This document shows positions 49,886-61,302 of a DNA stretch of 64,000 nt, in pieces. Below the pieces are notes generated by a model. That model saw only the letters and a program-made list of their open reading frames with translations, was not told the origin of the DNA and searched no databases. The position numbers and the translations under genes were made by a program. Origin of the DNA: Peptacetobacter sp. (GTDB taxonomy: Bacteria > Bacillota > Clostridia > Peptostreptococcales > Peptostreptococcaceae); NCBI RefSeq assembly GCF_029264495.1, contig NZ_JARIBH010000007.1, positions 1,636-65,635 on the forward strand, read 5' to 3'. Numbering within the stretch: the stretch's first letter is position 1; each line of letters opens with the position of its first letter.

Positions 49886-50743
49886 ATGTTTGGGTATGTA
49901 AAAATAAATAAAATGGATTTGACATTTAGAGAATATGAATATTATAAAAGTTACTACTGTGGTCTTTGTAAAACATTGAAAAAAAATCATGGAGAAGTAT
50001 CTAGGTTTTCTTTAAACTACGACATTACTTTTTTAATAGTGCTTTTATCAGCTATATATAATCCAGAATCAGAGATTACAGAAGAAGTGTGTATAGCAAA
50101 TCCAATAAAAAAGAAAAAGGTTCAAAAAAATGAAATAACAGAATATGCAGCAGCTATGAATGTTTTACTAGCATATTTTAAATTAAAAGATAATGTAAAA
50201 GATGAAAGAAGAATAAAAGATAAAATAGCGTATAATATGTATAAAGGAAGTTTAAAAGATACAAAAAATAAGTATAAATATAAAGCAGAATATATAGAAA
50301 AATGTTTATATGAACTAGAAGTTTTGGAAGCTGAAGATTCTATAGATTTAGATGATGTATCAAATACTTTTGGAAAATTAATGGGAGAAATTTTTGCATA
50401 CAAAAAAGATGAGTATGAAGAAATTCTTAGAAATATAGGATTTAATATAGGTAAATATGTTTACATATTAGATGCTTATGAAGATTTACCTGAAGACATA
50501 GAAAAAAATAGATATAATCCATTTAAAGAATATAAACCCAAGAGTGAAGAATTAAAGAAAAAAGTAGATAGAATAATATCGATGAGTTTAGGAATGCTTG
50601 GTAGAAATATAGATATGTTAAATCTCAAAAGAAATGTAGGTATAATAGAAAATATAATATATTCTGGTGTATACTTAAGATATAAAAATATATTATATGG
50701 AGATGGTAAGGATAAAAATGGAGATGTAAGTCATATAAACTAA
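49886..50743 (+). CDS. DUF5685 family protein
   Basis: MFGYV, YYCGLC, LNYDITF, KLKDNVKDE, YILDAYEDL..D..KNRYNP. Confidence 0.85.
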   Translation: MFGYVKINKMDLTFREYEYYKSYYCGLCKTLKKNHGEVSRFSLNYDITFLIVLLSAIYNPESEITEEVCIANPIKKKKVQKNEITEYAAAMNVLLAYFKLKDNVKDERRIKDKIAYNMYKGSLKDTKNKYKYKAEYIEKCLYELEVLEAEDSIDLDDVSNTFGKLMGEIFAYKKDEYEEILRNIGFNIGKYVYILDAYEDLPEDIEKNRYNPFKEYKPKSEELKKKVDRIISMSLGMLGRNIDMLNLKRNVGIIENIIYSGVYLRYKNILYGDGKDKNGDVSHIN

Positions 50744-50767: not shown

Positions 50768-51208
50768 ATGTACGGTGAAGCTATAAATAGAAATACATAC
50801 AATGAAGCTAGAAGATTAATATCTAATGGAAAATTTTCTGAAGCATATAGAATTTTAAAAGAAGTAATTTCAAGTGATAGAACTGCTGAATGGTTTTTCT
50901 TAACAGGAATGGCAGCTATGAAAATGGGTAGATATGATGAAGGTGAAGATTATATAAAAAGAGCAAGATTTATGGATCCAGAAAATAGAGAATATGATGA
51001 AGCGTATAATCAATTTAGTTCATATAGAAATGATTATGATAATAGAGCTAGATACTACAATGAAAGAAGAAGATATGATTCTGGTGGATGCTGTTGCAAT
51101 CCTTGTTGCTGTTGTTGTGGAGACGATTGTGCGAATACATGCTGTCAGTTATGGTGTTTAGATTCATGCTGTGAATGTATGGGTGGAGATTTTATAACTT
51201 GTTGTTAA
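50768..51208 (+). CDS. TPR protein with cysteine-rich C-terminal tail
   Basis: AEWFFLTG...ARFMDPENREY TPR; 17 Cys in the last 39 aa, ending FITCC. Confidence 0.85.
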   Translation: MYGEAINRNTYNEARRLISNGKFSEAYRILKEVISSDRTAEWFFLTGMAAMKMGRYDEGEDYIKRARFMDPENREYDEAYNQFSSYRNDYDNRARYYNERRRYDSGGCCCNPCCCCCGDDCANTCCQLWCLDSCCECMGGDFITCC

Positions 51209-51745: not shown

Positions 51746-51783
51746 AAAAAGTATCTCTAATAATTTTAGAGATACTTTTTTTT
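51746..51783 (+). terminator. Terminator after the DUF5685 triplet
   Basis: aaaaagtatctcta / tagagatacttttt perfect stem and T run. Confidence 0.85.
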
Positions 51784-51945
51784 ATGAAAGAATATAAAAG
51801 ATTTATTATGATAGTGATAAAAATTGCACTTTAAGATGTATAACTTGAAGTTTTTATTCTTATGATAAGAGATTATAATTTAAATATAGGGATTGGGAAA
51901 ACATTTTTAAACTTATGATATATAATTTATATGGGAGGTGTAAAG

Positions 51946-53817
51946 GTGAGAACTTTAAAGATAATAAAAGAATTATCGAGCACAAATAAGTACTTATCAA
52001 TAGATTATTTTATAAATAAATTATCTATATCAAAAAGAACTATTCAAAAAGAACTTTCTTATATAAATAAAATAAGTAAAAAAAATGGTTTTGATTTAAT
52101 ACAAAAAAGAGGAAAAGGATATTTATTGCGAATAGATGATACAGAAAAATTTGGAAATTTCCTCAAAGAACTTGATTATTATGAAATAAAAGAATTTACA
52201 ATTGATAATCTTATAGCATATCTATCTATACAAAATAATTATGTAGTAACAGAAGATATAGCGAATTATTTTGAAGTCAGTGTATCAAGTATTAGAAATC
52301 AAGTTAGAAAAATAGACTTTTATTTAGAAAAATTTAATTTGAGTATAGATAGAAAAGCTCATTATGGTTTAAAAATAAAAGAAGAATTAATAAATAGAAA
52401 AAATCTAATAAATCAACTTTTAAGTAAGAAAAATAAAATTATACTTGAAGAAATGAATGATACATTCAGTGATAGATTTAAAAATTTAAAAAGAATAATA
52501 TCAAATTATATAAAAGAGAAAGAATATTCAATAAATGATTCAGAAAGAGAAAAAATTATAAATAACATTAAAGTCATTCTATATATAAATAAGAAAAATG
52601 AAATATTAAAAAGACAATCTTACAAAGATAAATATATAAATGATATACAAGACTATTATGAAATAGGAATTTCATTAAACGATTATAAAGAAATAACAAA
52701 TACATTTGATAAATTTGTAATAAATAAAGAAAAATCAGAAAGTAAAATAACAATAGAAAATCTAAAAAAAGATATTAATATTTTTATAAAAGAAATTGAT
52801 AAAGAATATAATACTAATTTTTATAAGGATGAAGACTTTAAAAGGTTACTTACAACTCATGTATCATTACTTATAGAAAGATTGAGGTTGAAAGTATCTT
52901 ATACAAATGTTTTAATAGAAGAAATTTTAATAAGGTACCCTATGATATTTAATATAGCTATTAAATTTGCGAATATGATTTCAGAGAAATATGAAGTAAT
53001 TATTACAGAGGAAGAGGTTGGATTCATAGCAACACATTTTTGTGTTCATATGGAAAAGGAAGGATATAGAAATTATCTAAATATAGAGAAAATAGCAATA
53101 GTTTGTTCTAGTGGAGGAGGCAGTTCCTACTTACTACAGATGAAAATAATTAATTTATTTAAAAATTCAAATATAAAGACATTCTCATTTTATGATATTA
53201 AATCTATTGAAGAATTTGAACCAGATATTATTTTTTCTATAAAAGAATTAGATTTAAGTATAAGTGTTCCAGTAATAATAATAAAAGAATTTTTAGATGA
53301 TAATGATATGTTAAATATAAAAAAATTATTACTATTTACAGATAGAGATAAACAAGTTTCTTTAAATGAAACAAAGAATGTATTTATAAAAAATATATTG
53401 AAAAAAGAATATTTTAGCATAGATTATACAAATGAAAATTATATAGATATAATATCAGAAATGGCAGAAGAAATAGAAAAAGATGGTATAGGTGGAGCAG
53501 AATATAAAAATAGAGTATTAGAAAGAGAGAGTTATGTTTCAACCATTTATACAAATGGAATAGCAATTCCACATCCAATAGAAATGGGATCAAATGAAGA
53601 TTTAGTATCTATAAAAATATTAAAAAATGAAGTTTTTTATAAAGATAAAAAAGTAAATATAATTTTTATGGTTTCATTACAAAAAAAGAATTATGAGTTA
53701 CAAAAAGAAATTACAAAAAGTTTATATAATTTAATACAAGATATAGAAATTATAAAAAAATTGCATAAAGCAAAGACATATGAGGAGTTTATAGCAATTA
53801 TAGAACCATTTATATAG
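51946..53817 (+). CDS. PRD-containing PTS-regulated activator (LicR/MtlR/ManR type)
   Basis: Two HTH segments, PRD (GFIATHF), EIIB-like VCSSGGGSS, EIIA-like GIAIPH. GTG 51946 after GGAGGT (ORF track starts at 51931). Confidence 0.9.
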   Translation: MRTLKIIKELSSTNKYLSIDYFINKLSISKRTIQKELSYINKISKKNGFDLIQKRGKGYLLRIDDTEKFGNFLKELDYYEIKEFTIDNLIAYLSIQNNYVVTEDIANYFEVSVSSIRNQVRKIDFYLEKFNLSIDRKAHYGLKIKEELINRKNLINQLLSKKNKIILEEMNDTFSDRFKNLKRIISNYIKEKEYSINDSEREKIINNIKVILYINKKNEILKRQSYKDKYINDIQDYYEIGISLNDYKEITNTFDKFVINKEKSESKITIENLKKDINIFIKEIDKEYNTNFYKDEDFKRLLTTHVSLLIERLRLKVSYTNVLIEEILIRYPMIFNIAIKFANMISEKYEVIITEEEVGFIATHFCVHMEKEGYRNYLNIEKIAIVCSSGGGSSYLLQMKIINLFKNSNIKTFSFYDIKSIEEFEPDIIFSIKELDLSISVPVIIIKEFLDDNDMLNIKKLLLFTDRDKQVSLNETKNVFIKNILKKEYFSIDYTNENYIDIISEMAEEIEKDGIGGAEYKNRVLERESYVSTIYTNGIAIPHPIEMGSNEDLVSIKILKNEVFYKDKKVNIIFMVSLQKKNYELQKEITKSLYNLIQDIEIIKKLHKAKTYEEFIAIIEPFI

Positions 53818-53848
53818 AAAAGATAATTATAAAAAGGAGGAGATAAAA

Positions 53849-54865
53849 ATGGATAAAAAATTTTTAGAAGAATTATGTGAAATAGATGGAATAGCCTCTA
53901 ATGAATTTGATGTTGCGTTTAAACTAAAAAATAAATTTAAAAATGCAGATAGAATGTTAATTGATGGATTAGGTAGTCAAATATTTGAATACTCAAGTGA
54001 AGGACCCAAAATTATGTTTGCAGCACACATGGATGAAGTTGGTTTTATGATAAAAAATATTAGAGAGAATGGTCTAATAGATTTAATACCTATTGGCGGA
54101 GTAAAAGAAACTGCAAAAGGATTTCAAAAAGCTAGAATCACAACATCTGAAGGAAGTAAAATTATAGGATTAATAAATTCTACAGATGATAAATTGTATA
54201 TGGATATTGGTGTAGATAGTGATAAATCAGTTGAAAATCTAGGAATAGATATAGGAGATATGGTGTGTTTTGCTAGTAAATCTGAATGGTTAAATGAAGA
54301 TATTTTAATGGCAAAAGCATTAGATGATAGAATAGGAAATTTTATATTATCAGAAGTAGCAAAAGAAATAAATAATCTAAAAGAAAGAAAAAATAGTATA
54401 TATTTATGTAATACAGTGCAAGAAGAAGTAGGCACAAGAGGTGGTAAATGTAGCACAGATATAATAAAACCAGATGTATTTTTTGCTATAGATGTTGCAA
54501 CAGCACCAGATTTAAATAGAGGTTGTGATAATCATAGAAAAATAGGAAATGGTTTTATGATATTACATTATGACAAAACTATGATCCCCAATAAGAAATT
54601 TTTGAATTATATAAAAAATTTAGCAAAAGAAAATAATATAATTTTTCAAAAAGATATGTTTGGTGGAGGTGGAACTGATGCAGGTAATGCACATTTAGTT
54701 AGCGGAGGTAGACTTGCAATAGTTCTTGGAGTGCCATTAAGATATTGCCACGGAAATTATTCTATGGTGAATATGAAAGATGTAGAATCGCTTATAAAGT
54801 TTATAGTTGAAATAATAAAAGATTTAGATACTGATAAACTTAAAGATATAAAAAAATATGTTTAA
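53849..54865 (+). CDS. M42 family aminopeptidase (FrvX/YpdE-like)
   Basis: AAHMDEVG, KALDDRIG, QEEVG, AIDV, GGTDAG, RYCH; all metal ligands present. Confidence 0.92.
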   Translation: MDKKFLEELCEIDGIASNEFDVAFKLKNKFKNADRMLIDGLGSQIFEYSSEGPKIMFAAHMDEVGFMIKNIRENGLIDLIPIGGVKETAKGFQKARITTSEGSKIIGLINSTDDKLYMDIGVDSDKSVENLGIDIGDMVCFASKSEWLNEDILMAKALDDRIGNFILSEVAKEINNLKERKNSIYLCNTVQEEVGTRGGKCSTDIIKPDVFFAIDVATAPDLNRGCDNHRKIGNGFMILHYDKTMIPNKKFLNYIKNLAKENNIIFQKDMFGGGGTDAGNAHLVSGGRLAIVLGVPLRYCHGNYSMVNMKDVESLIKFIVEIIKDLDTDKLKDIKKYV

Positions 54866-54882
54866 ATTTAGTGGAGGTTTAA

Positions 54883-55194
54883 ATGAACGAATTAGAACAA
54901 AAAATAATAGGAATAATTTCATCTGCCGGAGAAAGTAAGGCAAAAGCATTTGAAGCACTTAGAAAAGTAAAAGATAGAGATTTTGAAGCAGCGAAAAAAC
55001 TTATGGAAGAATCAAAAGAAATAGATTTAGAAGCACATAAAATTCAAACTGAATTAATAGTTGCTGAAATGCAAGAAGATAAAGAAAATAAACCTGAAAT
55101 AAGTTTATTAATGGTACATGCACAAGATCACTACATGACTTCTCAATTAGCAAGAGATATTGTAGATGTTCTGATAGATATATTTGATAATTAG
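54883..55194 (+). CDS. PTS lactose/cellobiose-family EIIA
   Basis: AGESK, AHKIQTELI, LLMVHAQDHYMT. Confidence 0.95.
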   Translation: MNELEQKIIGIISSAGESKAKAFEALRKVKDRDFEAAKKLMEESKEIDLEAHKIQTELIVAEMQEDKENKPEISLLMVHAQDHYMTSQLARDIVDVLIDIFDN

Positions 55195-55206
55195 GAGGAA
55201 TTAAAA

Positions 55207-55533
55207 ATGAGAATAGTATTATGTTGCGCAGGTGGTTTTTCAACAACAATGTTAATGGAAAACATGAAAAAAACAGTAAAAGAAAGTAAAAAATTAGATG
55301 AAAGTAAATTTGACTTTATAGCTATACCAGTTGATACATTATCTCAAGAAATTGATAATTGTGATGTATTAGTTATAGGTCCTCAAATAGCACACAAATT
55401 AGAATCTTTAAAACCTATGTTAGAAGAAAAGAAAGTTCCATATACAGTAATTGATAGAGATACTTACGGTAAAATGGATGGAGCAACAGCTTTCAAAATG
55501 GCTCTTATAGCTCACAAAAAAGCTAATATGTAA
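55207..55533 (+). CDS. PTS lactose/cellobiose-family EIIB
   Basis: CCAGGFSTTML phosphorylation loop, GPQI, YGKMDG. Confidence 0.95.
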   Translation: MRIVLCCAGGFSTTMLMENMKKTVKESKKLDESKFDFIAIPVDTLSQEIDNCDVLVIGPQIAHKLESLKPMLEEKKVPYTVIDRDTYGKMDGATAFKMALIAHKKANM

Positions 55534-55562
55534 TAATTATAAATTGGGAGGAGAATTTATAT

Positions 55563-56891
55563 ATGTTCAAAAAGATAGAAAGTTTTATGAATAAATATCT
55601 ACTACCACTTGCACATAAAGTAGATAAACAAAAACATCTTAGTGCAATAAAAAAATCTATGGTAGCAATGACACCATTAATAATGATAGGGAGTTTATGT
55701 CTAATACCAGAAGCTATACCTAATCTTATAGGGCAAGAAAATCCTATTTCAGTATGGATAATGAATAATTTAGATACTATATATTTACCATTTACATATG
55801 GTATGGGATTCATGAGTTTATATGTTGCAGCTAGTATTGCTTATAATTTAGGTAAATCATACAATATGAATATACCTGGATGTTTAAGTATGGGAATAAT
55901 AGCATTTTTATTAGTTACTTTATATAATGATCCTGAAACAGGAGAATTATCAGTTAAATATCTAAGTACAAAAGGTCTTATAATGGGTATGCTAGCTCCA
56001 ATGTTAGCAGTTGAATTATATAGATGGTGTCTAAAAAAGAAATTCACAATTAAGATGCCAGAAGGTGTTCCAGATTTTGTTTCAAGTTCATTTGAAATGA
56101 TACCAGTTTCTGTAATAGTAATAGGTTCATTCCTTGCATTTAGATTATTCTCAGTTAATGTTTTAGGATGCATGCCACCAGAAATATTGACGCCAGTATT
56201 AGCTCCATTATTAGGTGCATTAGATAGTCCGTTTGGATTCTTTGTAAACCAGTTCTTATCTTGTTTATTATTCTTCTTTGGGATACATCCATCTGTAATG
56301 AGTCCGGTAACAAGTCCTATATCAAATCAGTTTTTAGCAGAAAATCAGGCTGCACATATGGCTGGACAGGCGTTACCTCATTTCTATACAGGAGGAATGG
56401 TATCTCCATTTGCTAACTTTACAGGAACAGGTATAACAATTGGTTTAGTTATATGGTGTTTAAGATCTAGAGCTAAGTCTCAGAGAACAGTTGGTAAAGT
56501 ATCATTAATTCCAACTTTATTTGGTATAAATGAACCAATATTATTCGGTGCACCAATAGTATTAAACCCAATATTCTTTATACCATATGTTATAGGTGGA
56601 TCAATATTAGGTTCTATTCCAGCATTTATGATGCACTTTGGATTACTTAATAAATCTTGGTTCAACCCACCATATGTTGGGGTATTCTTAGAAGGATTTT
56701 TAGCTACAGGAGACTGGAGAGCAATAATAGCAAACCTAATACAACTTGTTGGTTCGATAATAATTTGGTATCCGTTCTTTAAATTATATGAAAAAGAAGA
56801 ATTAAAAGCAGAAAAATCAAATACAGAGGAAATTCAAGCAATAAGTAAAGAAGATGAAGCATTACTTGATGATTTGGATTTAGATTTCTAA
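55563..56891 (+). CDS. PTS cellobiose-family EIIC
   Basis: HLSAIK, KMPEGVPDFVSSSFE, FFGIHP, GTG, FGINEPILFGAPIVLNP. Confidence 0.95.
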   Translation: MFKKIESFMNKYLLPLAHKVDKQKHLSAIKKSMVAMTPLIMIGSLCLIPEAIPNLIGQENPISVWIMNNLDTIYLPFTYGMGFMSLYVAASIAYNLGKSYNMNIPGCLSMGIIAFLLVTLYNDPETGELSVKYLSTKGLIMGMLAPMLAVELYRWCLKKKFTIKMPEGVPDFVSSSFEMIPVSVIVIGSFLAFRLFSVNVLGCMPPEILTPVLAPLLGALDSPFGFFVNQFLSCLLFFFGIHPSVMSPVTSPISNQFLAENQAAHMAGQALPHFYTGGMVSPFANFTGTGITIGLVIWCLRSRAKSQRTVGKVSLIPTLFGINEPILFGAPIVLNPIFFIPYVIGGSILGSIPAFMMHFGLLNKSWFNPPYVGVFLEGFLATGDWRAIIANLIQLVGSIIIWYPFFKLYEKEELKAEKSNTEEIQAISKEDEALLDDLDLDF

Positions 56892-56901
56892 TAATTATTT
56901 T

Positions 56902-56930
56902 AAGGACAGGCATAGCCTGTCCTTTATTTA
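56902..56930 (+). terminator. Intra-operon GC-rich hairpin after EIIC
   Basis: aaggacaggc-ata-gcctgtcctt followed by tattta. Confidence 0.6.
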
Positions 56931-56944
56931 AAAGGAGTATTAAT

Positions 56945-58033
56945 ATGAACTTATTTATAGAAAAAATGAGAAAAGATTTAAAAGAAAATGAAGCAATACT
57001 TGCAAAATCTAAAGATATAAAAAAATATTTAAATACTCTAGAGGGTAGTGGGGTAGAAATACTAATATTAAAAAAGAAAATATATTTGATTATGGATGGA
57101 AGATATATTGAAGATGCAAAACAAAGATATTACAATAATAAAAATATTTACATATTGAAAAATGATAAAAAAACAAATATAGAAATAATCAAAGAAATAT
57201 GTAAAAATGATAAAATAAATAAATTAAAAGTTGAATATAATGCATATAAAATAAAAGAGTATATGAATTTAGAGAAATTGAAACTGGAATTAGAAAATTT
57301 TGATGAAGAATTTAAAAAAATAAGAATGATTAAAACGAAAAATGAGATAGAAATTATAATGGAAGCTTGTGAGATAACAGATAAAGTATTTGAAAATGTA
57401 ATAAATAATATAAAAATAGGAATGACTGAAAGAGAAATAAGTGCTTTAGTTCAATATTATTCTATAAAATTTGGAGCAAGTAAAATGTCATTTGATCCGG
57501 TTATATCATCTGGCAAAAGAACAGCATATCCACATGCAAGACCAAGTGATAAAAAAATAGAAAAAAATGATTTTATAATGTTAGATTTTGGCATTGAATA
57601 CAGAGGGTATCAATCAGATATGACAAGAATGATATTTATAGGAAAACCAAATAAAAAGATTGAAGAAATATATAATATAGTTTTAAATGCACAATTGGAA
57701 GCGATAAAAAATATAAAAATAGGGGAAAAATGTAAAAATATAGATAAAATATCTAGAGATATAATAAAAAAGTTTGGATATGGGGATTATTTTGTACATG
57801 GTCTAGGACATGGAATAGGTATAAATAATGGAGATGAATATCCAAAATTAAATAAAGAAAGCGAAATGATTTTACAAGAAGGTATGATTATGTCATGTGA
57901 ACCAGGAATATATCTTCCTAATATAGGTGGTATAAGAATAGAAGATGATGTGTGTATAATTAATGGAAAAGCAGTTTCATTAAATAAAACAACAAAAAAA
58001 ATTATAGTATTGGAGAATAAAGATGAAATATAA
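56945..58033 (+). CDS. M24B Xaa-Pro aminopeptidase (YpdF/YqhT-like)
   Basis: LDFG..YRGYQSDMTR, HGLGHGIG, EPGIY, GIRIEDD ligands intact. Confidence 0.92.
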   Translation: MNLFIEKMRKDLKENEAILAKSKDIKKYLNTLEGSGVEILILKKKIYLIMDGRYIEDAKQRYYNNKNIYILKNDKKTNIEIIKEICKNDKINKLKVEYNAYKIKEYMNLEKLKLELENFDEEFKKIRMIKTKNEIEIIMEACEITDKVFENVINNIKIGMTEREISALVQYYSIKFGASKMSFDPVISSGKRTAYPHARPSDKKIEKNDFIMLDFGIEYRGYQSDMTRMIFIGKPNKKIEEIYNIVLNAQLEAIKNIKIGEKCKNIDKISRDIIKKFGYGDYFVHGLGHGIGINNGDEYPKLNKESEMILQEGMIMSCEPGIYLPNIGGIRIEDDVCIINGKAVSLNKTTKKIIVLENKDEI

Positions 58034-59198
58034 TTTTGATAAAATAAATAATAGAAAAGGTACATACTGTACACAGTGGGATTATATACAAGATAGATTT
58101 GGTGTAGAAGATATTTTACCATTTTCAATATCAGATACTGATTTTATAGTTCCTTATGAAGTTACAGAAAAATTAAAATCAGTTTTAGAACATCAAATTT
58201 TTGGATATACGAGATGGAATCATGATGATTTTAAAAATAGTATAGTTAATTTCTTTAAAAAAAGATTTGATACAGAAGTTAAAAAAGATTGGGTTATATA
58301 CAGCCCTAGTGTAATGTATTCAGTATCATTACTTATAAAATTATTATCTAAGGATAATGATATAGTTGCAACATTTAATCCTATGTATGATGCATTTTTT
58401 AATGTAATAGAAGGTAATAATAGAAAAATAGGTAAAGTAGATTTAATAGAAAAAGATGGAAAATTTTATATAGATTTTAATAAACTAGAGGAAATGTTAA
58501 AAAAATCAAAACTTCTTCTCCTTTGTTCACCACATAACCCAACAGGTAAAGTTTTTACAGAAAAAGAGCTTGTAAAAATAGTTAAACTGTGTAAAAAATA
58601 TAGTATAAAGATAATATCTGATGAAATACACATGGATATAATTCTAGGTGAAAAAAAACATAATCCTATAATAAAATTTTTGAAAGAATACAATGATTTA
58701 TATTTAGTGTCATCAGGATCAAAAACATTTAATTATCCCGCATTAATTTGTTCATATGCAATTATTCCAAATGATAATATAAAAGAAGAATTTTTAACTA
58801 CTACTAGAAAAAAAGAATTTTTAAATTCAGCAAGTATACCTGGTATGTATGCTACAATGATTTCATATAATGAATGCGATGATTATATAGAAGAATTAGT
58901 TGCATATATAAATAAAAATATGGATTATGTAGAAAAATATATAAAAGAAAATATAAAGGATTTAAAATTTAAAAAGCCAGAAGGAACATATTTAGCATGG
59001 ATAGATTGTAGAAAACTTAAATACTCTTCTGAAGAATTACAAGATGTGCTTGTAAATATCGGAAAAGTTGGTATTATGAAAGGAGAAGTATATGGTGGGG
59101 AAAAATATCTTCGATTAAATTGTGGATGCAGTATAGAAAAATTAAAATTAGGTCTTGAAAAATTGAAAAATAGTATAGAATATTTAAAACTTAAATAG
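58023..59198 (+). CDS. MalY/PatB-family PLP-dependent beta C-S lyase
   Basis: PFSISDTDF, FGYT, LCSPHNPTG, SDEIH, SGSKTFN (PLP Lys), PEGTYLAWID, RLNCG. Confidence 0.92.
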   Translation: MKYNFDKINNRKGTYCTQWDYIQDRFGVEDILPFSISDTDFIVPYEVTEKLKSVLEHQIFGYTRWNHDDFKNSIVNFFKKRFDTEVKKDWVIYSPSVMYSVSLLIKLLSKDNDIVATFNPMYDAFFNVIEGNNRKIGKVDLIEKDGKFYIDFNKLEEMLKKSKLLLLCSPHNPTGKVFTEKELVKIVKLCKKYSIKIISDEIHMDIILGEKKHNPIIKFLKEYNDLYLVSSGSKTFNYPALICSYAIIPNDNIKEEFLTTTRKKEFLNSASIPGMYATMISYNECDDYIEELVAYINKNMDYVEKYIKENIKDLKFKKPEGTYLAWIDCRKLKYSSEELQDVLVNIGKVGIMKGEVYGGEKYLRLNCGCSIEKLKLGLEKLKNSIEYLKLK

Positions 59199-59235
59199 CA
59201 AAAGAAATGAATATTAGTATATATCAAAAATAAAG

Positions 59236-59276
59236 TAATAAAAAAGAGGAGATTTAAAAATCTCCCTTTTTTATTA
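59236..59276. terminator. Bidirectional terminator PTS operon / HAD gene
   Basis: taataaaaaagaggagatt / aatctcccttttttatta stem between convergent genes. Confidence 0.8.
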
Positions 59277-59283
59277 TAATATT

Positions 59284-60033
59284 CTATTCAGATAAATCGT
59301 CATAAGAAAGAACTTGAACATCAGGTTTAAGTTTATATAAAATATCTTTTCGCTCAACTATTATGTCAGCATTATTTTTTAAAATATCATCTTCTCTCAA
59401 CTTAGTTAATAGTTCATTAGTTGGATTGATTGCAATAGGGTGTCCAACTCTTTTAAGCATATTTATATCACCATTTGTATCACCATATGCATATGACTTA
59501 GATAAATCTATATCGTACTTTTCTACAAGTTCTGTAATAGCATTATTTTTGCTCTCAGAATCCCACATTGGAACAAGTTCTCCAGTAAAATATCCATTTT
59601 CTATTATATATTTACTTCCTATATAATTTGTAACATGATATTTTTCAGCCATTTTTTTTACTAAAAAATCGGGACTTCCAGAAATAAAAATTACAATATC
59701 GCCAGCTTTTAAATGTCTTTCTATCTGAGAACGAGTATATTTATATACTCTATCAGCCTTTGTTTTTATAACTTGATCAGCAGCAAATTCGATGCTATGC
59801 CAATCAACGCCTTTCAAAGAATCTACATATAAGTCACATACCTCTAATAAATAATCATCATAATTACCTTGTCTTTTATCCCAATTTAAAAATGTATTTC
59901 TAGCATGTTCCATCCAAGCTTTTTCATCTATAACTTCGTATTTAATTAATTTTTTAAAATGTTCTACCATAAGTGAATCTCTATAAAGAGTTCCATCAAT
60001 ATCAAAAAATGCCGCTCTTTTTTTCATAAGCAT
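59284..60033 (-). CDS. HAD-IB (SerB-like) hydrolase
   Basis: FFDIDGTL, ISGSP, K in ESKNNAI, AYGDTNGD, AINP. Confidence 0.9.
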   Translation of the reverse strand: MLMKKRAAFFDIDGTLYRDSLMVEHFKKLIKYEVIDEKAWMEHARNTFLNWDKRQGNYDDYLLEVCDLYVDSLKGVDWHSIEFAADQVIKTKADRVYKYTRSQIERHLKAGDIVIFISGSPDFLVKKMAEKYHVTNYIGSKYIIENGYFTGELVPMWDSESKNNAITELVEKYDIDLSKSYAYGDTNGDINMLKRVGHPIAINPTNELLTKLREDDILKNNADIIVERKDILYKLKPDVQVLSYDDLSE

Positions 60034-60198: not shown

Positions 60199-61302
60199 AT
60201 GAATTTGAAATTTAATTTTGCAAAACTTACTCAATCAAGACTTATGGGAAGTATGGGAATGATTGTAGATAGTACAGATGAAAGTGGAAATAATATAAAA
60301 CAGTATTTTTTATTGGATTCAGAGGGATTAGGACTTTGTGATTATGTGAAATTAATAAATCCATCAGAAAAAAGAGCATATATGGAAGAAGAAAGATTGA
60401 TGGGAGGACTTGGTTCAGATAGGATAGAAATATCAGAAGAAGAATCTAAATTTTTAATAAAGCATTTTGGAAGTAGAAATATAAAATATGAAAAAGAATT
60501 AGCAGGAGAAGTAGAAGATTATATAGATATAATAAATAATTTCAAAACAAATATTTGTATATATGATTTATATCCTAAAATTTGTAAAGAAGTAAAAGAA
60601 GAAGTAGAATTTGTAAATTATATGGTTATGAGACTTGTTGCGTGGGATAGAGAGGCTTTGACTTACTATTCTGGTAGTGAAGAAATAGGTAGTATGCATA
60701 TAACAAATATAAATGGAACGCTTCTAAAAACAAATATAGTTTCTAGAGGAAATGGAAAATATATTTCAGAAACAATTTATGAAGATAATGATGGATACTA
60801 TATTTGTAAGATAGCGCTTAGTATAGAAAAAATAAATGACAACTTCAAATTAAAATCAATGGTCGTATCTGAATCAGAGCCAATATATGATTTTGAAGTT
60901 TTTGATGAGATTTCTAAAGAAGAGTTTGTTGATATATATACTATTGATAATGAAGAACAATTTTTAGAAAAATTCTATGAAGATAATCCTTTTGTTATGA
61001 AAAGTGATATGGAGGAAGATACTGTATTATTTACAAGATTTAATTTTAATAATGACCATGTAAAAGCGAACTCATATGTTATAAATAATGATATAAAAGC
61101 TATATATTATAGCAATGCAGGTATGTTTTTTGTTGGAACTTATTCAGAAAAAGACAGAAAATATATAAATGGATTATTAAGTGTAAATTACTCGGAATTT
61201 TTAACATATCAAGATTCTATGTTCTTTGAACAAAATGCATTATATGATTTTGTAGAATCTGGAAATGATGATTTTTATGATTTTTTAGATGATGAAGAAT
61301 AA
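60199..61302 (+). CDS. Acidic hypothetical protein
   Basis: Long ORF with normal codon use and its own terminator; no motif recognised. Confidence 0.8.
   Translation: MNLKFNFAKLTQSRLMGSMGMIVDSTDESGNNIKQYFLLDSEGLGLCDYVKLINPSEKRAYMEEERLMGGLGSDRIEISEEESKFLIKHFGSRNIKYEKELAGEVEDYIDIINNFKTNICIYDLYPKICKEVKEEVEFVNYMVMRLVAWDREALTYYSGSEEIGSMHITNINGTLLKTNIVSRGNGKYISETIYEDNDGYYICKIALSIEKINDNFKLKSMVVSESEPIYDFEVFDEISKEEFVDIYTIDNEEQFLEKFYEDNPFVMKSDMEEDTVLFTRFNFNNDHVKANSYVINNDIKAIYYSNAGMFFVGTYSEKDRKYINGLLSVNYSEFLTYQDSMFFEQNALYDFVESGNDDFYDFLDDEE

What the first reader, a model, noticed from the sequence alone, without database searches (positions are those of the whole stretch)
51946..59198. Lac/Cel-family PTS operon with two aminopeptidases and a PLP beta-lyase but no glycosidase: candidate glycopeptide or glyco-amino-acid pathway
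Seen: PRD activator, M42 aminopeptidase, EIIA-EIIB-EIIC, Xaa-Pro aminopeptidase and MalY/PatB lyase in one unit closed by a single terminator, with the recognised catalytic motifs intact. There is no GH1/GH4 phospho-glycosidase, kinase, isomerase or epimerase. Established: Lac/Cel PTS operons normally carry a 6-phospho-beta-glycosidase; M42/M24 peptidases occur beside fructose-type PTS genes in E. coli (frvX, ypdEF) with unresolved substrates; PatB/MalY catalyse beta-elimination of beta-substituted amino acids. Inference: the PTS imports and phosphorylates a sugar attached to an amino acid or short peptide, for example O-HexNAc-Ser/Thr from Pro/Thr/Ser-rich mucin or S-glycosyl-Cys. The peptidases would trim it, including at Pro, and the lyase would free the sugar-6-P by beta-elimination in place of a glycosidase.
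Basis: partly seen in the sequence, partly recalled or inferred. Interest (0 to 1): 0.8.

Follow-up and report, generated by a model that had tools for sequence, protein, structure and literature searches.

The report
PTS operon with peptidases and lyase
A sugar-uptake (PTS) operon that always travels with two peptidases and a MalY-type PLP lyase but never with a glycosidase is conserved across many gut Firmicutes, and it most likely breaks down a sugar attached to an amino acid or short peptide, though no experiment has yet named the substrate.

Summary
Window 51931-59198 (+) encodes a PRD/LicR-type activator, an M42 aminopeptidase, Lac/Cel-type EIIA, EIIB and EIIC, an M24B Xaa-Pro peptidase and a PatB/MalY-family lyase. 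The genes are tightly packed between two terminator hairpins, and all catalytic residues are intact.

The gene set is a discrete, conserved module. I found 27 Lac-type loci in at least 8 families of Bacillota. The same enzyme trio is also paired with a Fru-family PTS in 2 loci. An RDD membrane protein is often an eighth gene.

No cluster contains a phospho-glycosidase. By contrast, 49 of 55 conventional Lac/Cel EIIC loci have GH1, GH4 or GH170 within 8 kb.

The lyase groups with E. coli MalY (bootstrap 100/100). A second PatB lineage fills the same slot in a sister clade. A related PTS+RDD+M42 cluster carries a glycosylasparaginase and a PepV-like peptidase instead of the lyase, which points to glycopeptide catabolism as the shared theme.

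The same cluster was drawn, but not interpreted, in a 2018 L. sakei paper. Its lyase showed only weak C-S lyase and racemase activity.

The parts
51746..51780 (+). Terminator hairpin plus U-run that closes the upstream membrane-protein gene. It marks the 5' boundary of the module.
   Evidence: -17 kcal/mol, z -5.8, 0 of 200 shuffles fold as well; homology to P. hominis begins at 51930.
51931..53817 (+). LicR/MtlR-class PRD transcriptional activator (HTH_11, Mga, PRD, EIIB-like and EIIA-Mtl/Fru-like domains). The likely true start is GTG 51946.
   Evidence: Pfam domains. (GGGAGG RBS upstream of GTG 51946). Present as the first gene in all complete clusters.
53849..54865 (+). M42 (TET-type) metallo-aminopeptidase of the YpdE/FrvX kind.
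   Evidence: PF05343, 256 bits. NF007421, 385.8 bits, below the 412 cutoff; best PDB match 1YLO; 36% identity to YpdE, 32% to FrvX; ligands H60, D62, D159, E192, E193, D215, H301 invariant.
54883..55194 (+). PTS EIIA, Lac/Cel family.
   Evidence: PF02255, 95.5 bits. The HAQDH phospho-His motif is visible in the translation.
55207..55533 (+). PTS EIIB, Lac/Cel family.
   Evidence: PF02302. An N-terminal Cys motif, LCCAGG, is present.
55563..56891 (+). PTS EIIC, Lac/Cel family. It belongs to a distinct clade that has clade-specific charged residues.
   Evidence: TIGR00410, 263 bits against a cutoff of 236; aligns over 413 residues with ChbC (3QNQ). H242 and E324 invariant. K137, E178, R194, D221, H273 and E377 are clade-specific, and W25, W244 and W370 of conventional EIICs are lost.
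56844..56888 (+). Conserved acidic C-terminal tail of the EIIC (SKEDEALLDDLDLDF-COOH). Function unknown; possibly a docking peptide.
   Evidence: present in 26 of 26 EIICs of lyase-type clusters, in a similar form in 2 of 2 glycosylasparaginase-type EIICs, and in 0 of 49 conventional EIICs.
56945..58033 (+). M24B Xaa-Pro peptidase (prolidase/YpdF-like).
   Evidence: PF00557, 223 bits; best PDB matches are the P. furiosus prolidase 1PV9 and YpdF 5CNX; 34% identity to YpdF. D214, D225, H289, E319, E333 conserved. Absent only in Granulicatella.
58023..59198 (+). PLP-dependent lyase of the PatB family, MalY subfamily.
   Evidence: TIGR04350, 345.9 bits against a cutoff of 340; best PDB match E. 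coli MalY 1D2F, E 7.8e-92; forms a clade with MalY, bootstrap 100/100. K234, Y122, D200, N172, R364 invariant; signature residues shared with MalY.
59240..59272 (.). Bidirectional intrinsic terminator shared with the convergent HAD-IB gene. It marks the 3' boundary of the module.
   Evidence: -13.1 kcal/mol, z -4.2; homology to P. hominis ends at 59203.

Best explanation
The operon is a self-contained, horizontally mobile catabolic module for a sugar that is covalently attached to an amino acid or short, probably Pro-containing, peptide.

Proposed sequence of events:
1. The substrate induces the operon through the PRD activator.
2. The Lac/Cel-type EIIABC imports the conjugate and phosphorylates its sugar.
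3. The M42 aminopeptidase removes N-terminal residues. The M24B peptidase cleaves Xaa-Pro bonds, for example glycosyl-Ser/Thr-Pro, leaving a free phospho-glycosyl amino acid.
4. The MalY-type PLP lyase breaks the bond between the sugar and the amino-acid side chain by alpha,beta-elimination. The most plausible substrate is O-glycosyl-Ser/Thr, and S-glycosyl-Cys is the alternative.
5. The products are sugar-6-phosphate plus pyruvate or 2-oxobutyrate plus ammonia, so no glycosidase is needed.

Shown here: the gene content, intact catalytic residues, strict co-inheritance of the genes, clade-specific absence of glycosidases, retention of the enzyme trio across two PTS families, and MalY-clade membership of the lyase.

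Inferred: that the substrate is a glyco-amino acid or glycopeptide, the order of the steps, and that the lyase (rather than M42) cleaves the sugar linkage. I give about 0.6 to 'PTS pathway for a sugar-amino acid/peptide conjugate' and about 0.3-0.35 to 'the lyase replaces the glycosidase by beta-elimination of O-/S-glycosyl amino acids'. The confidence below is a compromise for the composite statement.
For: (a) Co-inheritance. Eleven of 11 genome loci with an EIIC at 54% identity or more carry reg-M42-IIA-IIB-IIC-M24-lyase in the same order, and 0 of 55 distant EIIC loci carry M42, M24 or PatB. More genera show the same arrangement, as does a sister clade with EIICs at 49-53% and an E. raffinosus megaplasmid with a different gene order.

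(b) Discrete unit. Within 8 kb only these genes plus RDD recur. Homology to the nearest genome stops exactly at the operon ends. The cluster is a strain-specific ~8 kb insertion in L. sakei (PMC5845896), and ICE-like genes lie beside it in T. ramosa.

(c) No glycosidase. None of 29 clusters contains one, against 49 of 55 conventional Lac/Cel loci, or 38 of 39 loci of at least 12 kb.

(d) PTS swap. Breznakia and a Lachnospiraceae MAG pair a FryC-like Fru-family EIIABC with M24, M42 and a lyase 57% and 49% identical to the window's.

(e) Same slot, two lineages. The sister clade's last gene is a PatB-family lyase (355-365 bits) that is only ~30% identical and forms a separate clade.

(f) A predicted M24-lyase fusion protein exists.

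(g) Parallel chassis. The L184 and L167 clusters have a Lac-type PTS, RDD and two M42 genes, plus an Ntn hydrolase whose best PDB match is glycosylasparaginase (9e-54, against ~1e-35 for isoaspartyl peptidases), plus a PepV-like M20. L184 also has a GH170 (MupG family) gene. This mirrors the experimentally proven L. casei GlcNAc-Asn pathway genes pepV and asnA2 (PMC6960285) and the chitobiose PTS with GH170 (PMC12791066).

(h) Chemical precedent. LmbF is a fold-type-I PLP enzyme that beta-eliminates an S-glycosyl-L-cysteine (PMC11794154). Alkaline beta-elimination of O-glycans from Ser/Thr is standard glycochemistry (own knowledge).

(i) The lyase and EIIC differ from generic relatives at positions consistent with a different, more polar or charged ligand. 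In the lyase these are W35 to S/T, the R64-W65 insertion, and basic residues at 25 and 262. In the EIIC, charged residues are gained and tryptophans lost.

(j) All catalytic residues are invariant, so these are enzymes and not only regulators.
Against: - No PatB/MalY-family enzyme has been shown to act on O-glycosyl-Ser/Thr. All characterised members are C-S lyases.
- The only purified lyase from such a cluster (L. sakei MalY) showed beta-lyase activity on L-Cys (Km 11.5 mM), cystine and cystathionine, and broad racemase activity (Km for Ala 169 mM). No glycosylated substrate was tried.
- No PTS of the Lac/Cel family is known to carry a zwitterionic glyco-amino acid.
- The E. coli ypd and frv clusters have the peptidase(s) but no lyase, and Granulicatella lacks M24, so the enzymes are not all obligatory.
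- M42, not the lyase, is the universal partner of such PTS systems, which fits the rival in which M42 cleaves the conjugate.
- The placement of the signature residues in the active site is inferred from fold-type-I topology and was not verified on coordinates.
- No expression or induction data exist. Only DNA runs from cetacean metagenomes hold this sequence.
- Two clusters have a glycosidase in an adjacent, separate unit: a GH4 in L158 and a GH1 in L244.
Confidence: 0.45

Rival explanations
1. The substrate is a sugar-amino acid or sugar-peptide conjugate, but the sugar linkage is an amide or ester to an amino sugar or sugar hydroxyl (an aminoacyl or peptidyl sugar), and it is cleaved by the M42 peptidase. 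The MalY-type lyase then acts downstream on the released amino acid, for example by desulfhydrating Cys or a Cys S-conjugate, or by racemisation. The lyase is not the deglycosylating enzyme.
For: M42 is the one enzyme common to all PTS-peptidase clusters. E. coli frvABXR has only M42, sgc has M42 without M24 or a lyase, and ypd has M42+M24 without a lyase. The L184 and L167 clusters have two M42 genes. All biochemistry so far for MalY/PatB enzymes is C-S lyase or racemase activity on free amino acids. The PDB neighbours are cysteine-S-conjugate beta-lyases.
Against: It gives no role to a Xaa-Pro peptidase. It does not explain why two separate PatB lineages are recruited to the same slot, or why the lyase carries MalY-specific signature residues that differ from stand-alone C-S lyases. 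Abundant natural aminoacyl-sugars that would yield a central sugar phosphate without a further glycosidase are hard to name; bacillithiol, for example, would still need a glycosidase (own reasoning).
Confidence: 0.2
2. This is an ordinary beta-glycoside or disaccharide PTS whose phospho-glycosidase is encoded elsewhere. The peptidases and lyase are merely co-regulated, either for amino-acid supply under the same conditions or with a MalY-like moonlighting role as a protein regulator.
For: The EIIABC are canonical in domain content and catalytic residues. E. coli MalY is a known anti-activator of MalT (annotation; PMC5845896). Two clusters have a GH4 or GH1 in a neighbouring unit.
Against: The contrast of 0 of 29 against 49 of 55 for a linked glycosidase. 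The seven or eight genes move as a block into unrelated contexts. The enzyme trio persists when the PTS family is exchanged. The catalytic residues of all three enzymes are invariant. According to the L. sakei authors, no MalT homologue exists in L. sakei.
Confidence: 0.12
3. The transported molecule is a cysteine S-conjugate or thioether peptide whose S-substituent carries the phosphorylatable hydroxyl (a sugar or polyol). This would be analogous to the Cys-Gly-conjugate, dipeptidase and PatB route of skin staphylococci. The lyase performs its classical C-S cleavage and the thiol product is released or detoxified.
For: The peptidase-plus-PatB logic matches the known thioalcohol pathway (the PDB neighbour 6QP3, and the NCBIfam family name 'Cys-Gly-3M3SH dipeptidase' seen). 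It requires the least new chemistry for the lyase. LmbF is a precedent for S-glycosyl-Cys cleavage.
Against: S-glycosyl or S-polyol cysteine peptides are rare in nature (own knowledge). This sits poorly with a module that is abundant in gut Erysipelotrichaceae; for example, the Longicatena EIIC is indexed in more than 2000 blocks of the collection. The product would be a thio-sugar phosphate, which is not a central metabolite, yet no further enzyme travels with the module.
Confidence: 0.1

Closest known systems
E. coli fryBC-ypdFE-fryA cluster (also frvABXR and sgcX-BC)
   Same: It has PTS permease genes directly linked to an M42 aminopeptidase (YpdE, FrvX, SgcX) and, in ypd, an M24B peptidase (YpdF). 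The window proteins are 36% identical to YpdE and 34% to YpdF, and the best PDB hits are 1YLO and 5CNX. The substrates are unknown there too.
   Different: The E. coli systems use Fru- or Gat-family permeases and have no lyase. Firmicute Fru-type versions (Breznakia, a Lachnospiraceae MAG) do include the MalY-type lyase. The window proteins score below the curated equivalog cutoffs for the best NCBIfam aminopeptidase equivalog models, NF007421 and NF007310.
E. coli malX-malY
   Same: A MalY lyase is encoded next to a PTS permease. The window lyase is 39% identical to MalY, MalY is its best PDB match, and the two form a clade with 100/100 support and shared signature residues.
   Different: MalX is a Glc-family EIICB and there are no peptidases. 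MalY's known role is MalT antagonism plus cystathionase side activity, and its physiological substrate is unknown.
L. sakei LT-13 LACBS_00568-00576 cluster (Kato & Oikawa 2018, PMC5845896)
   Same: By its published gene list this is the same cluster: PRD protein(s), aminopeptidase, Lac/Cel IIA, IIB and IIC, RDD, aminopeptidase, malY. Its MalY is a PLP enzyme with essential K233 and Y123, which correspond to K234 and Y122 here.
   Different: Only the lyase was studied, and only on free amino acids. The authors proposed no pathway. I could not compare sequences directly because the LT-13 genome is not in the collections I searched.
L. casei alf-2 pathway for fucosyl-GlcNAc-Asn (PMC6960285) and the PTS+RDD+M42+glycosylasparaginase clusters found here (L184, L167)
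   Same: Both handle dedicated uptake and intracellular breakdown of a glyco-amino acid, using a peptidase plus an enzyme specific for the linkage. L184 and L167 share a Lac-type PTS, RDD, M42 and the acidic EIIC tail with the window-type clusters.
   Different: alf-2 uses an MFS permease and a kinase. In those systems the linkage enzyme is an Ntn-hydrolase glycosylasparaginase, suited to N-linked conjugates, whereas here it would be a PLP lyase. The EIICs are only ~31% identical.
LmbF of lincomycin biosynthesis (PMC11794154)
   Same: It is a fold-type-I PLP enzyme that carries out beta-elimination on an S-glycosyl-L-cysteine.
   Different: It is biosynthetic rather than catabolic. It was not among the PDB sequence hits at E<=1e-20, so it is not a close relative. 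Its substrate is not phosphorylated.
Mannose-family PTS for glucoselysine and fructoselysine (gfr, Salmonella and Enterococcus; own knowledge, not checked here)
   Same: It shows that a PTS can import a sugar-amino acid conjugate, which is then cleaved as the 6-phosphate.
   Different: It belongs to a different PTS family, cleavage is by SIS-domain deglycases, and no peptidases or lyase are involved.

Membership tests
PTS Lac/Cel family (TC 4.A.3) EIIABC | The EIIC matches the family model above its curated cutoff, and separate EIIA (PF02255) and EIIB (PF02302) proteins are present. | tested here: met
   TIGR00410, 263.4 bits against a cutoff of 236. PF02255 95.5 bits, PF02302 45.7 bits, PF02378 165 bits.
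PTS Lac/Cel family (TC 4.A.3) EIIABC | The conserved His and Glu of the EIIC sugar site are present (H250 and E334 in ChbC; residue numbers from my own knowledge of the ChbC structure paper). | tested here: met
   In the alignment to 3QNQ, GIH and INE align. H242 and E324 are invariant in 18 clade sequences.
PTS Lac/Cel family (TC 4.A.3) EIIABC | The usual operon partner, a 6-phospho-glycosidase (GH1, GH4 or GH170), is present. | tested here: not met
   49 of 55 conventional loci have one, and 0 of 25 clusters of this type contain one. add 4 more clusters without one inside.
PTS Lac/Cel family (TC 4.A.3) EIIABC | PEP-dependent phosphorylation of a beta-glycoside. | not testable with these tools
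   This needs a transport or phosphorylation assay.
PatB/MalY C-S lyase family (TIGR04350) | The score is above the curated cutoff, and the PLP-binding Lys and stacking Tyr are present. | tested here: met
   345.9 bits against a cutoff of 340, so only just above. K234 and Y122 are invariant, matching K233 and Y121/Y123 of Ec-MalY and Ls-MalY.
MalY subfamily (E. coli MalY clade) | It is monophyletic with E. coli MalY to the exclusion of stand-alone PatBs. | tested here: met
   NJ tree of 100 sequences, A+MalY split recovered in 100 of 100 bootstraps; shared signature residues (T17, Q18, R25, S/T35, S37, R64, W65, S96, P239, S271, M352, K373).
PatB/MalY C-S lyase family (TIGR04350) | beta C-S lyase activity on cystathionine, cystine or Cys S-conjugates. 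| not testable with these tools
   Shown only for the lyase from the L. sakei cluster (PMC5845896), with mM Km values.
M42 (TET) aminopeptidases | The Pfam model is matched and the di-metal ligand set (His, Asp, Glu-Glu, Asp, His) is present. | tested here: met
   PF05343, 256 bits. H60, D62, D159, E192, E193, D215, H301 are invariant across 24 sequences that include YpdE, FrvX and SgcX.
E. coli aminopeptidase equivalogs NF007421 (M42) and NF007310 (M24) | The score reaches the curated equivalog cutoff. | tested here: not met
   385.8 bits against 412 for NF007421, and 235.8 bits against 393 for NF007310. The window proteins are relatives, not equivalogs.
M24B Xaa-Pro peptidases (prolidase / aminopeptidase P) | The pita-bread domain with the five metal ligands D, D, H, E, E, and the N-terminal creatinase-like domain. 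| tested here: met
   PF00557, 223 bits. D214, D225, H289, E319, E333 conserved. Creatinase_N is annotated on the orthologues; top PDB hits are prolidases.
LicR/MtlR/ManR-class PRD activators | N-terminal HTH and Mga-like DNA-binding domains, PRD(s), and EIIB-like and EIIA(Mtl/Fru)-like domains. | tested here: met
   HTH_11, Mga, PRD, PTS_IIB and PTS_EIIA_2, in that order. Pfam detects only one PRD.
Glyco-amino acid / glycopeptide catabolic systems | Demonstrated growth on, induction by, or cleavage of a glycosylated amino acid or peptide. | not testable with these tools
   The only support is comparative: the parallel glycosylasparaginase clusters.

The most novel reading that the evidence does not exclude
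MalY-type PLP lyases are 'glycosyl-Ser/Thr (or Cys) lyases'. They would remove a phosphorylated sugar from an amino-acid side chain by beta-elimination, a way of deglycosylating that needs no glycosidase. PTS permeases of at least two families (Lac/Cel and Fru), together with M42 and M24 peptidases, would then form a previously unrecognised class of glycopeptide uptake systems. This would also give a physiological role to the long-cryptic E. coli genes malY, ypdEF, frvX and sgcX, and possibly to the conserved acidic EIIC tail as a docking site that assembles a transporter-peptidase complex.
Probability: 0.3. Interest if true: 0.9.

Novelty: new variant of a known kind. Interest (0 to 1): 0.72.

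Why it matters
If the reading is right, it would define a new substrate class for the bacterial PTS (glycopeptides or glyco-amino acids). It would also define a new enzymatic route for removing O-linked sugars: PLP beta-elimination instead of hydrolysis.

The module is common in gut Erysipelotrichaceae (Longicatena, Amedibacterium, Thomasclavelia, Faecalicoccus, Massilimicrobiota), clostridia, enterococci and lactobacilli. It could therefore be a significant route for harvesting host or dietary glycoproteins.

It would make a decades-old question directly testable: what the E. coli MalY lyase and the PTS-linked peptidases YpdE, YpdF, FrvX and SgcX are for.

Even if the exact chemistry differs, the comparative result stands. 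A seven- to eight-gene module, with its enzyme trio kept across PTS families and no glycosidase, gives a clear and tractable target in cultured species.

Tried and rejected
- **Literature.** Nine full-text searches (M42/PTS/C-S lyase; ypdE/ypdF/frvX/sgcX; PatB/MalY/PTS; glycopeptide/beta-elimination/PTS; LmbF; glycosylasparaginase/PTS; glycoamino acid/PTS; M42/PTS/glycopeptide; MalY/MalX) found no functional assignment. The only mention is the L. sakei cluster drawing. Two proteomics papers that mention M42 and PTS were irrelevant. The MalY structure paper (PMC305623) is not held, so I could not place the signature residues on coordinates.
- **Scan with the lyase as query.** The genome scan used window-specific peptide patterns and returned mostly PatBs at 38% identity or less, in Bacteroidales and clostridia without PTS context. 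It served only as an outgroup.
- **Adjacent Glc-family PTS units.** Such units lie next to the lyase in Longicatena and Breznakia, reminiscent of malXY. They are only ~31% identical to each other and absent elsewhere, so I treated them as incidental.
- **Acidic tail and Fru-type EIICs.** I tested whether Fru-type EIICs of the swapped clusters share the acidic tail. They do not.
- **Sequencing runs.** Only DNA runs from cetacean metagenomes (~45% of words) and one other organism hold this sequence. There are no RNA data, so there is no expression evidence.
- **Ideas considered and set aside.**
  - Amadori or fructosamine substrates: no deglycase is present.
  - Muropeptides: there is no amidase and the N-terminus is blocked.
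  - GlcNAc-Asn for this cluster: there is no glycosylasparaginase, and a PatB-type lyase cannot cleave the Cbeta-Cgamma bond.
  - Bacillithiol-like Cys-GlcN conjugates: they still need a glycosidase and give M24 no role.
  - M42 acting as a 'cellulase': this is a historical misannotation (own knowledge).
- **First phylogeny script.** It timed out and was replaced by a faster implementation.

Full report
**1. What is in the window**

Between an AT-rich terminator hairpin (51746-51780; -17 kcal/mol, z -5.8) and a bidirectional terminator (59240-59272; -13.1 kcal/mol, z -4.2) lie seven + strand genes. They are separated by 12-53 nt, and the last two overlap by 11 nt.

Pfam and NCBIfam assign them as follows:
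- A LicR/MtlR-class PRD activator with HTH_11, Mga, PRD, EIIB-like and EIIA-2 domains.
- An M42 aminopeptidase.
- Lac/Cel-family EIIA, EIIB and EIIC. The EIIC scores 263 bits on TIGR00410 (cutoff 236).
- An M24B Xaa-Pro peptidase.
- A PatB-family PLP lyase, scoring 345.9 bits on TIGR04350 (cutoff 340).

Catalytic residues are present and conserved among relatives:
- M42: H60, D62, D159, E192, E193, D215, H301.
- M24: D214, D225, H289, E319, E333.
- Lyase: K234, Y122, N172, D200, R364.
- EIIC: H242, E324.

The rest of the window is housekeeping or unrelated: rho, ATP synthase, purine synthesis, transporters, Fe-ADH, DUF5685, ArsR. The 18 window ORFs outside the operon that I tested, which include all of the GH1/GH4-sized ones, contain no glycosidase. 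The window has about 27% G+C. Its nearest genome is Peptacetobacter hominis, whose EIIC is 88% identical.

**2. The gene set is a conserved, discrete module**

The EIIC search found a well-separated clade.
- All 11 genome loci with an EIIC at 54% identity or more have the same seven genes in the same order. One of them is cut by a contig end. None of the 55 loci with EIICs at 35% or less has an M42, M24 or PatB gene.
- Further look-ups found the same cluster in Longicatena, Amedibacterium, Massilimicrobiota, Faecalicoccus, Thomasclavelia ramosa, Clostridium intestinale and Ca. Stoquefichus.
- Granulicatella has the cluster without M24.
- A sister clade with EIICs at 49-53% keeps the architecture. 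It includes Terrisporobacter, Clostridium sp., Pseudolactococcus raffinolactis, two enterococci and C. thermobutyricum.
- The E. raffinosus and E. gilvus megaplasmids carry EIICs at 43% identity. The annotated E. raffinosus record shows a rearranged version, reg-IIA-IIB-IIC-M24-M42-lyase.
- An RDD-family membrane protein is a frequent eighth gene.

I clustered all ORFs within 8 kb of 14 loci. Nothing else recurs in three or more species.

Even against P. hominis, similarity begins at 51930 and ends at 59203, and the flanks are unrelated. In L. sakei the cluster is a strain-specific ~8 kb insertion (PMC5845896). In T. ramosa it lies beside ICE-like genes. The module therefore moves as a unit.

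**3. The missing glycosidase is real and clade-specific**

I used E. coli AscB (GH1), ChbF (GH4), a GH4 from L158 and a GH170 from L184 as probes. Of the 55 conventional Lac/Cel EIIC loci, 49 have such an enzyme within 8 kb, and so do 38 of the 39 loci that are at least 12 kb long. None of 25 clusters of the present type contains one. The four clusters added later do not either.

Two clusters have a glycosidase in a neighbouring, separately organised unit. L158 has a GH4 behind a Glc-family PTS with its own antiterminator. L244 has a GH1 at the end of the upstream operon.

**4. The enzymes stay together when the transporter changes**

With the M42 protein as query, all nine relatives at 39% identity or more are PTS-linked or, on short contigs, linked to M24 and the lyase.

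Breznakia pachnodae and a Lachnospiraceae MAG carry the following genes:
- a PRD activator;
- Fru-type EIIA and EIIB;
- a FryC-like EIIC, 62% and 57% identical to E. coli FryC;
- a YpdF-like M24;
- a YpdE-like M42;
- a lyase 57% and 49% identical to the window's.

So M42+M24+lyase is the conserved core, and the PTS family is interchangeable. E. coli's own fryBC-ypdFE-fryA, frvABXR and sgc clusters are reduced relatives without a lyase. The window proteins are 36% identical to YpdE, 32% to FrvX, 27% to SgcX and 34% to YpdF.

**5. The lyase**

Its best solved relative is E. coli MalY (1D2F, E 7.8e-92, 39% identity).

I built a neighbour-joining tree from 16 cluster lyases, MalY, 6 sister-clade lyases and 77 stand-alone PatBs. 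The cluster lyases plus MalY form a clade in 100 of 100 bootstraps. The sister-clade lyases form a separate clade, also 100 of 100. Those sister-clade lyases still score above the PatB family cutoff, at 355-365 bits. Two different PatB lineages have therefore been recruited to the same operon position. That argues for a required catalytic function rather than chance linkage. A predicted M24-lyase fusion protein exists on one contig.

Compared with stand-alone PatBs, MalY-type lyases have several signature changes:
- the Trp of the N-terminal W-x-A-D-M-D-F motif is replaced by Ser or Thr;
- Arg-Trp is inserted two residues after the inter-subunit Tyr62;
- basic residues sit at positions 25 and 262, where generic PatBs have gaps, hydrophobic or acidic residues.

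Three positions are shared by both PTS-linked lineages and MalY but not by generic PatBs: D123, Y245 and S269.

From the general topology of fold-type-I enzymes these segments should border the substrate's distal group. I could not verify that on coordinates.

The only biochemistry for a lyase from such a cluster is L. sakei MalY. It contains PLP, has beta-lyase activity on L-Cys (Km 11.5 mM), cystine and cystathionine, and has broad racemase activity (Km for Ala 169 mM). K233 and Y123 are essential. These look like side activities. No glycosylated compound was tested.

**6. A parallel cluster points to glycopeptides**

A Lachnospiraceae MAG (L184) and a Bulleidia MAG (L167) carry these genes:
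- a PRD activator;
- one or two RDD genes;
- Lac-type EIIA, EIIB and EIIC;
- a small GrdB-like protein;
- two M42 genes;
- an Asparaginase_2 protein whose best PDB matches are true glycosylasparaginases (9e-54, against about 1e-35 for isoaspartyl peptidases);
- a PepV-like M20 dipeptidase.

L184 also has a MupG-family (GH170) 6-phospho-glycosidase. L167 has CutC downstream and an amidohydrolase upstream that may be NagA-like.

PepV plus glycosylasparaginase is the enzyme pair of the proven L. casei pathway for fucosyl-GlcNAc-Asn (PMC6960285). A cellobiose-type PTS with a GH170 enzyme is the proven chitobiose system of L. paracasei (PMC12791066). These clusters therefore look like PTS routes for N-glycopeptide cores.

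They share the PTS+M42+RDD chassis with the window-type cluster. They also share a feature I did not expect, an acidic, hydrophobic C-terminal tail on the EIIC:
- Lyase-type EIICs (26 of 26) end ...S.EDEALL.DLDLDF.
- N-glyco-type EIICs (2 of 2) end ...DELDDLSFDDL.LD.
- None of 49 conventional EIICs has such a tail, and neither do the Fru-type EIICs.

What differs between the two cluster types is the linkage-specific enzyme, an amidase for Asn-linked sugar against a PLP lyase here.

The EIICs of the two types are only ~31% identical, so this is an argument from shared architecture and not from orthology.

**7. Most likely mechanism**

The module imports and phosphorylates a sugar that is bound to an amino acid or short peptide. 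M42 trims the N-terminus. The M24B enzyme deals with Xaa-Pro bonds; as a prolidase it would free glycosyl-Ser/Thr from a C-terminal Pro. The MalY-type lyase then eliminates the sugar phosphate from the beta-carbon, giving sugar-6-P, pyruvate or 2-oxobutyrate, and ammonia. All products are central metabolites, which fits a module that carries no further catabolic genes.

Two points make beta-elimination chemically reasonable:
- LmbF performs it on an S-glycosyl-cysteine (PMC11794154).
- Base-catalysed beta-elimination is the standard way to release O-glycans from Ser/Thr (own knowledge).

The lyase would recognise the amino-acid end of the molecule, so it could serve permeases with different sugar specificities. 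That would explain the Lac/Fru swap (inference).

No GalNAc-6-P pathway genes accompany the module. Examples are O-beta-GlcNAc- or O-beta-Glc-Ser/Thr for the Lac/Cel type, and possibly O-Man for the Fru type.

**8. Rivals**

- M42 is the enzyme that splits the conjugate (an aminoacyl or peptidyl sugar), and the lyase only processes the released amino acid. This fits M42 being the universal PTS partner and fits known PatB chemistry. It leaves M24 and the double recruitment of PatB lineages unexplained.
- An ordinary glycoside PTS with a trans-acting glycosidase. This is contradicted by the 0/29 against 49/55 contrast, the block inheritance and the PTS swap.
- A Cys S-conjugate route with classical C-S cleavage. 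This needs the least new chemistry, but such substrates are rare and the product would be a dead-end thio-sugar phosphate.

**9. Novelty and verdict**

The cluster has been drawn once in the literature, in L. sakei in 2018, without interpretation. I found no paper that assigns a function to it, to ypdEF, frvX or sgcX, or to MalY's physiological substrate.

It is a new variant of a known kind, a PTS catabolic operon with an unprecedented enzyme complement. If the lyase chemistry is confirmed it would be a new way of deglycosylating.

Noticed in passing
window 56844-56888 (EIIC residues 428-442); also the EIIC C-termini in L001-L011, L067, L070, L156-L162, L236-L245, L167 and L184: A conserved acidic, hydrophobic C-terminal tail (…S·EDEALL·DLDLDF-COOH) is present on all 26 EIICs of lyase-type clusters. 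A similar tail is present on the 2 glycosylasparaginase-type EIICs. It is absent from 49 conventional Lac/Cel EIICs and from the Fru-type EIICs. It resembles protein-docking tails such as the SSB C-terminus. Its function is unknown.
   Followed up: partly
L184 2685-13213 and L167 959-12925: These are undescribed PTS clusters with RDD, Lac-type EIIABC, a GrdB-like selenium-free protein, two M42 peptidases, a glycosylasparaginase-like Ntn hydrolase and a PepV-like M20. L184 also has a GH170/MupG-family enzyme, and L167 has CutC and an amidohydrolase. They are probably a PTS route for N-glycan core glycopeptides.
   Followed up: partly
L158 3843-11221 and L161 (Breznakia pachnodae; Lachnospiraceae MAG): These are Firmicute versions of the E. 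coli fry/ypd cluster (Fru-type EIIA, EIIB, FryC-like EIIC, YpdF-like and YpdE-like peptidases) that also carry a MalY-type lyase. This links the E. coli cryptic genes ypdEF and malY into one putative pathway.
   Followed up: partly
L245 5246-7264 (P0236); P0182: There is a predicted fusion of the M24 peptidase and the lyase (672 aa), and a predicted fusion of the lyase with the RDD protein (614 aa). Each is seen on a single metagenomic contig. They could be real fusions or frameshift artefacts of overlapping genes.
   Followed up: no
RDD genes: L004-L010, L067, L237-L239, L242, L244 (after the lyase; between IIC and M24 in L009): An RDD-family small membrane protein is a recurrent eighth gene of the module. 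It is also present, once or twice, in the glycosylasparaginase-type clusters. It is absent from the window, P. hominis, C. baratii, C. intestinale and Granulicatella. Its role is unknown.
   Followed up: partly
L242 1-2424 and 12228-12407 (Thomasclavelia ramosa): The cluster is flanked by Rep_trans, FtsK/SpoIIIE and DUF961 genes and a resolvase fragment. This suggests carriage on, or insertion next to, an integrative conjugative element.
   Followed up: no
window 50768-51208 and 49886-50743: There is a small protein with an N-terminal TPR region and an extremely Cys-rich C-terminus (…GGCCCNPCCCCCGDDCANTCCQLWCLDSCCECMGG…). It lies directly after a DUF5685 gene. Function unknown.
   Followed up: no
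window 60199-61302: A 367-aa acidic protein with no Pfam or NCBIfam match lies downstream of the convergent HAD-IB phosphatase gene (59284-60033, - strand). Neither gene is conserved next to the module in other genomes.
   Followed up: no
L067 14867-18004 and L158 11390-15837: In Longicatena and Breznakia an EIIA-Glc gene, a BglG-type antiterminator and a MalX-like EIICB (33-34% identical to E. coli MalX) follow the module, plus a GH4 in Breznakia. This is reminiscent of malX-malY, but the two units are only ~31% identical to each other, so the adjacency is probably incidental.
   Followed up: yes
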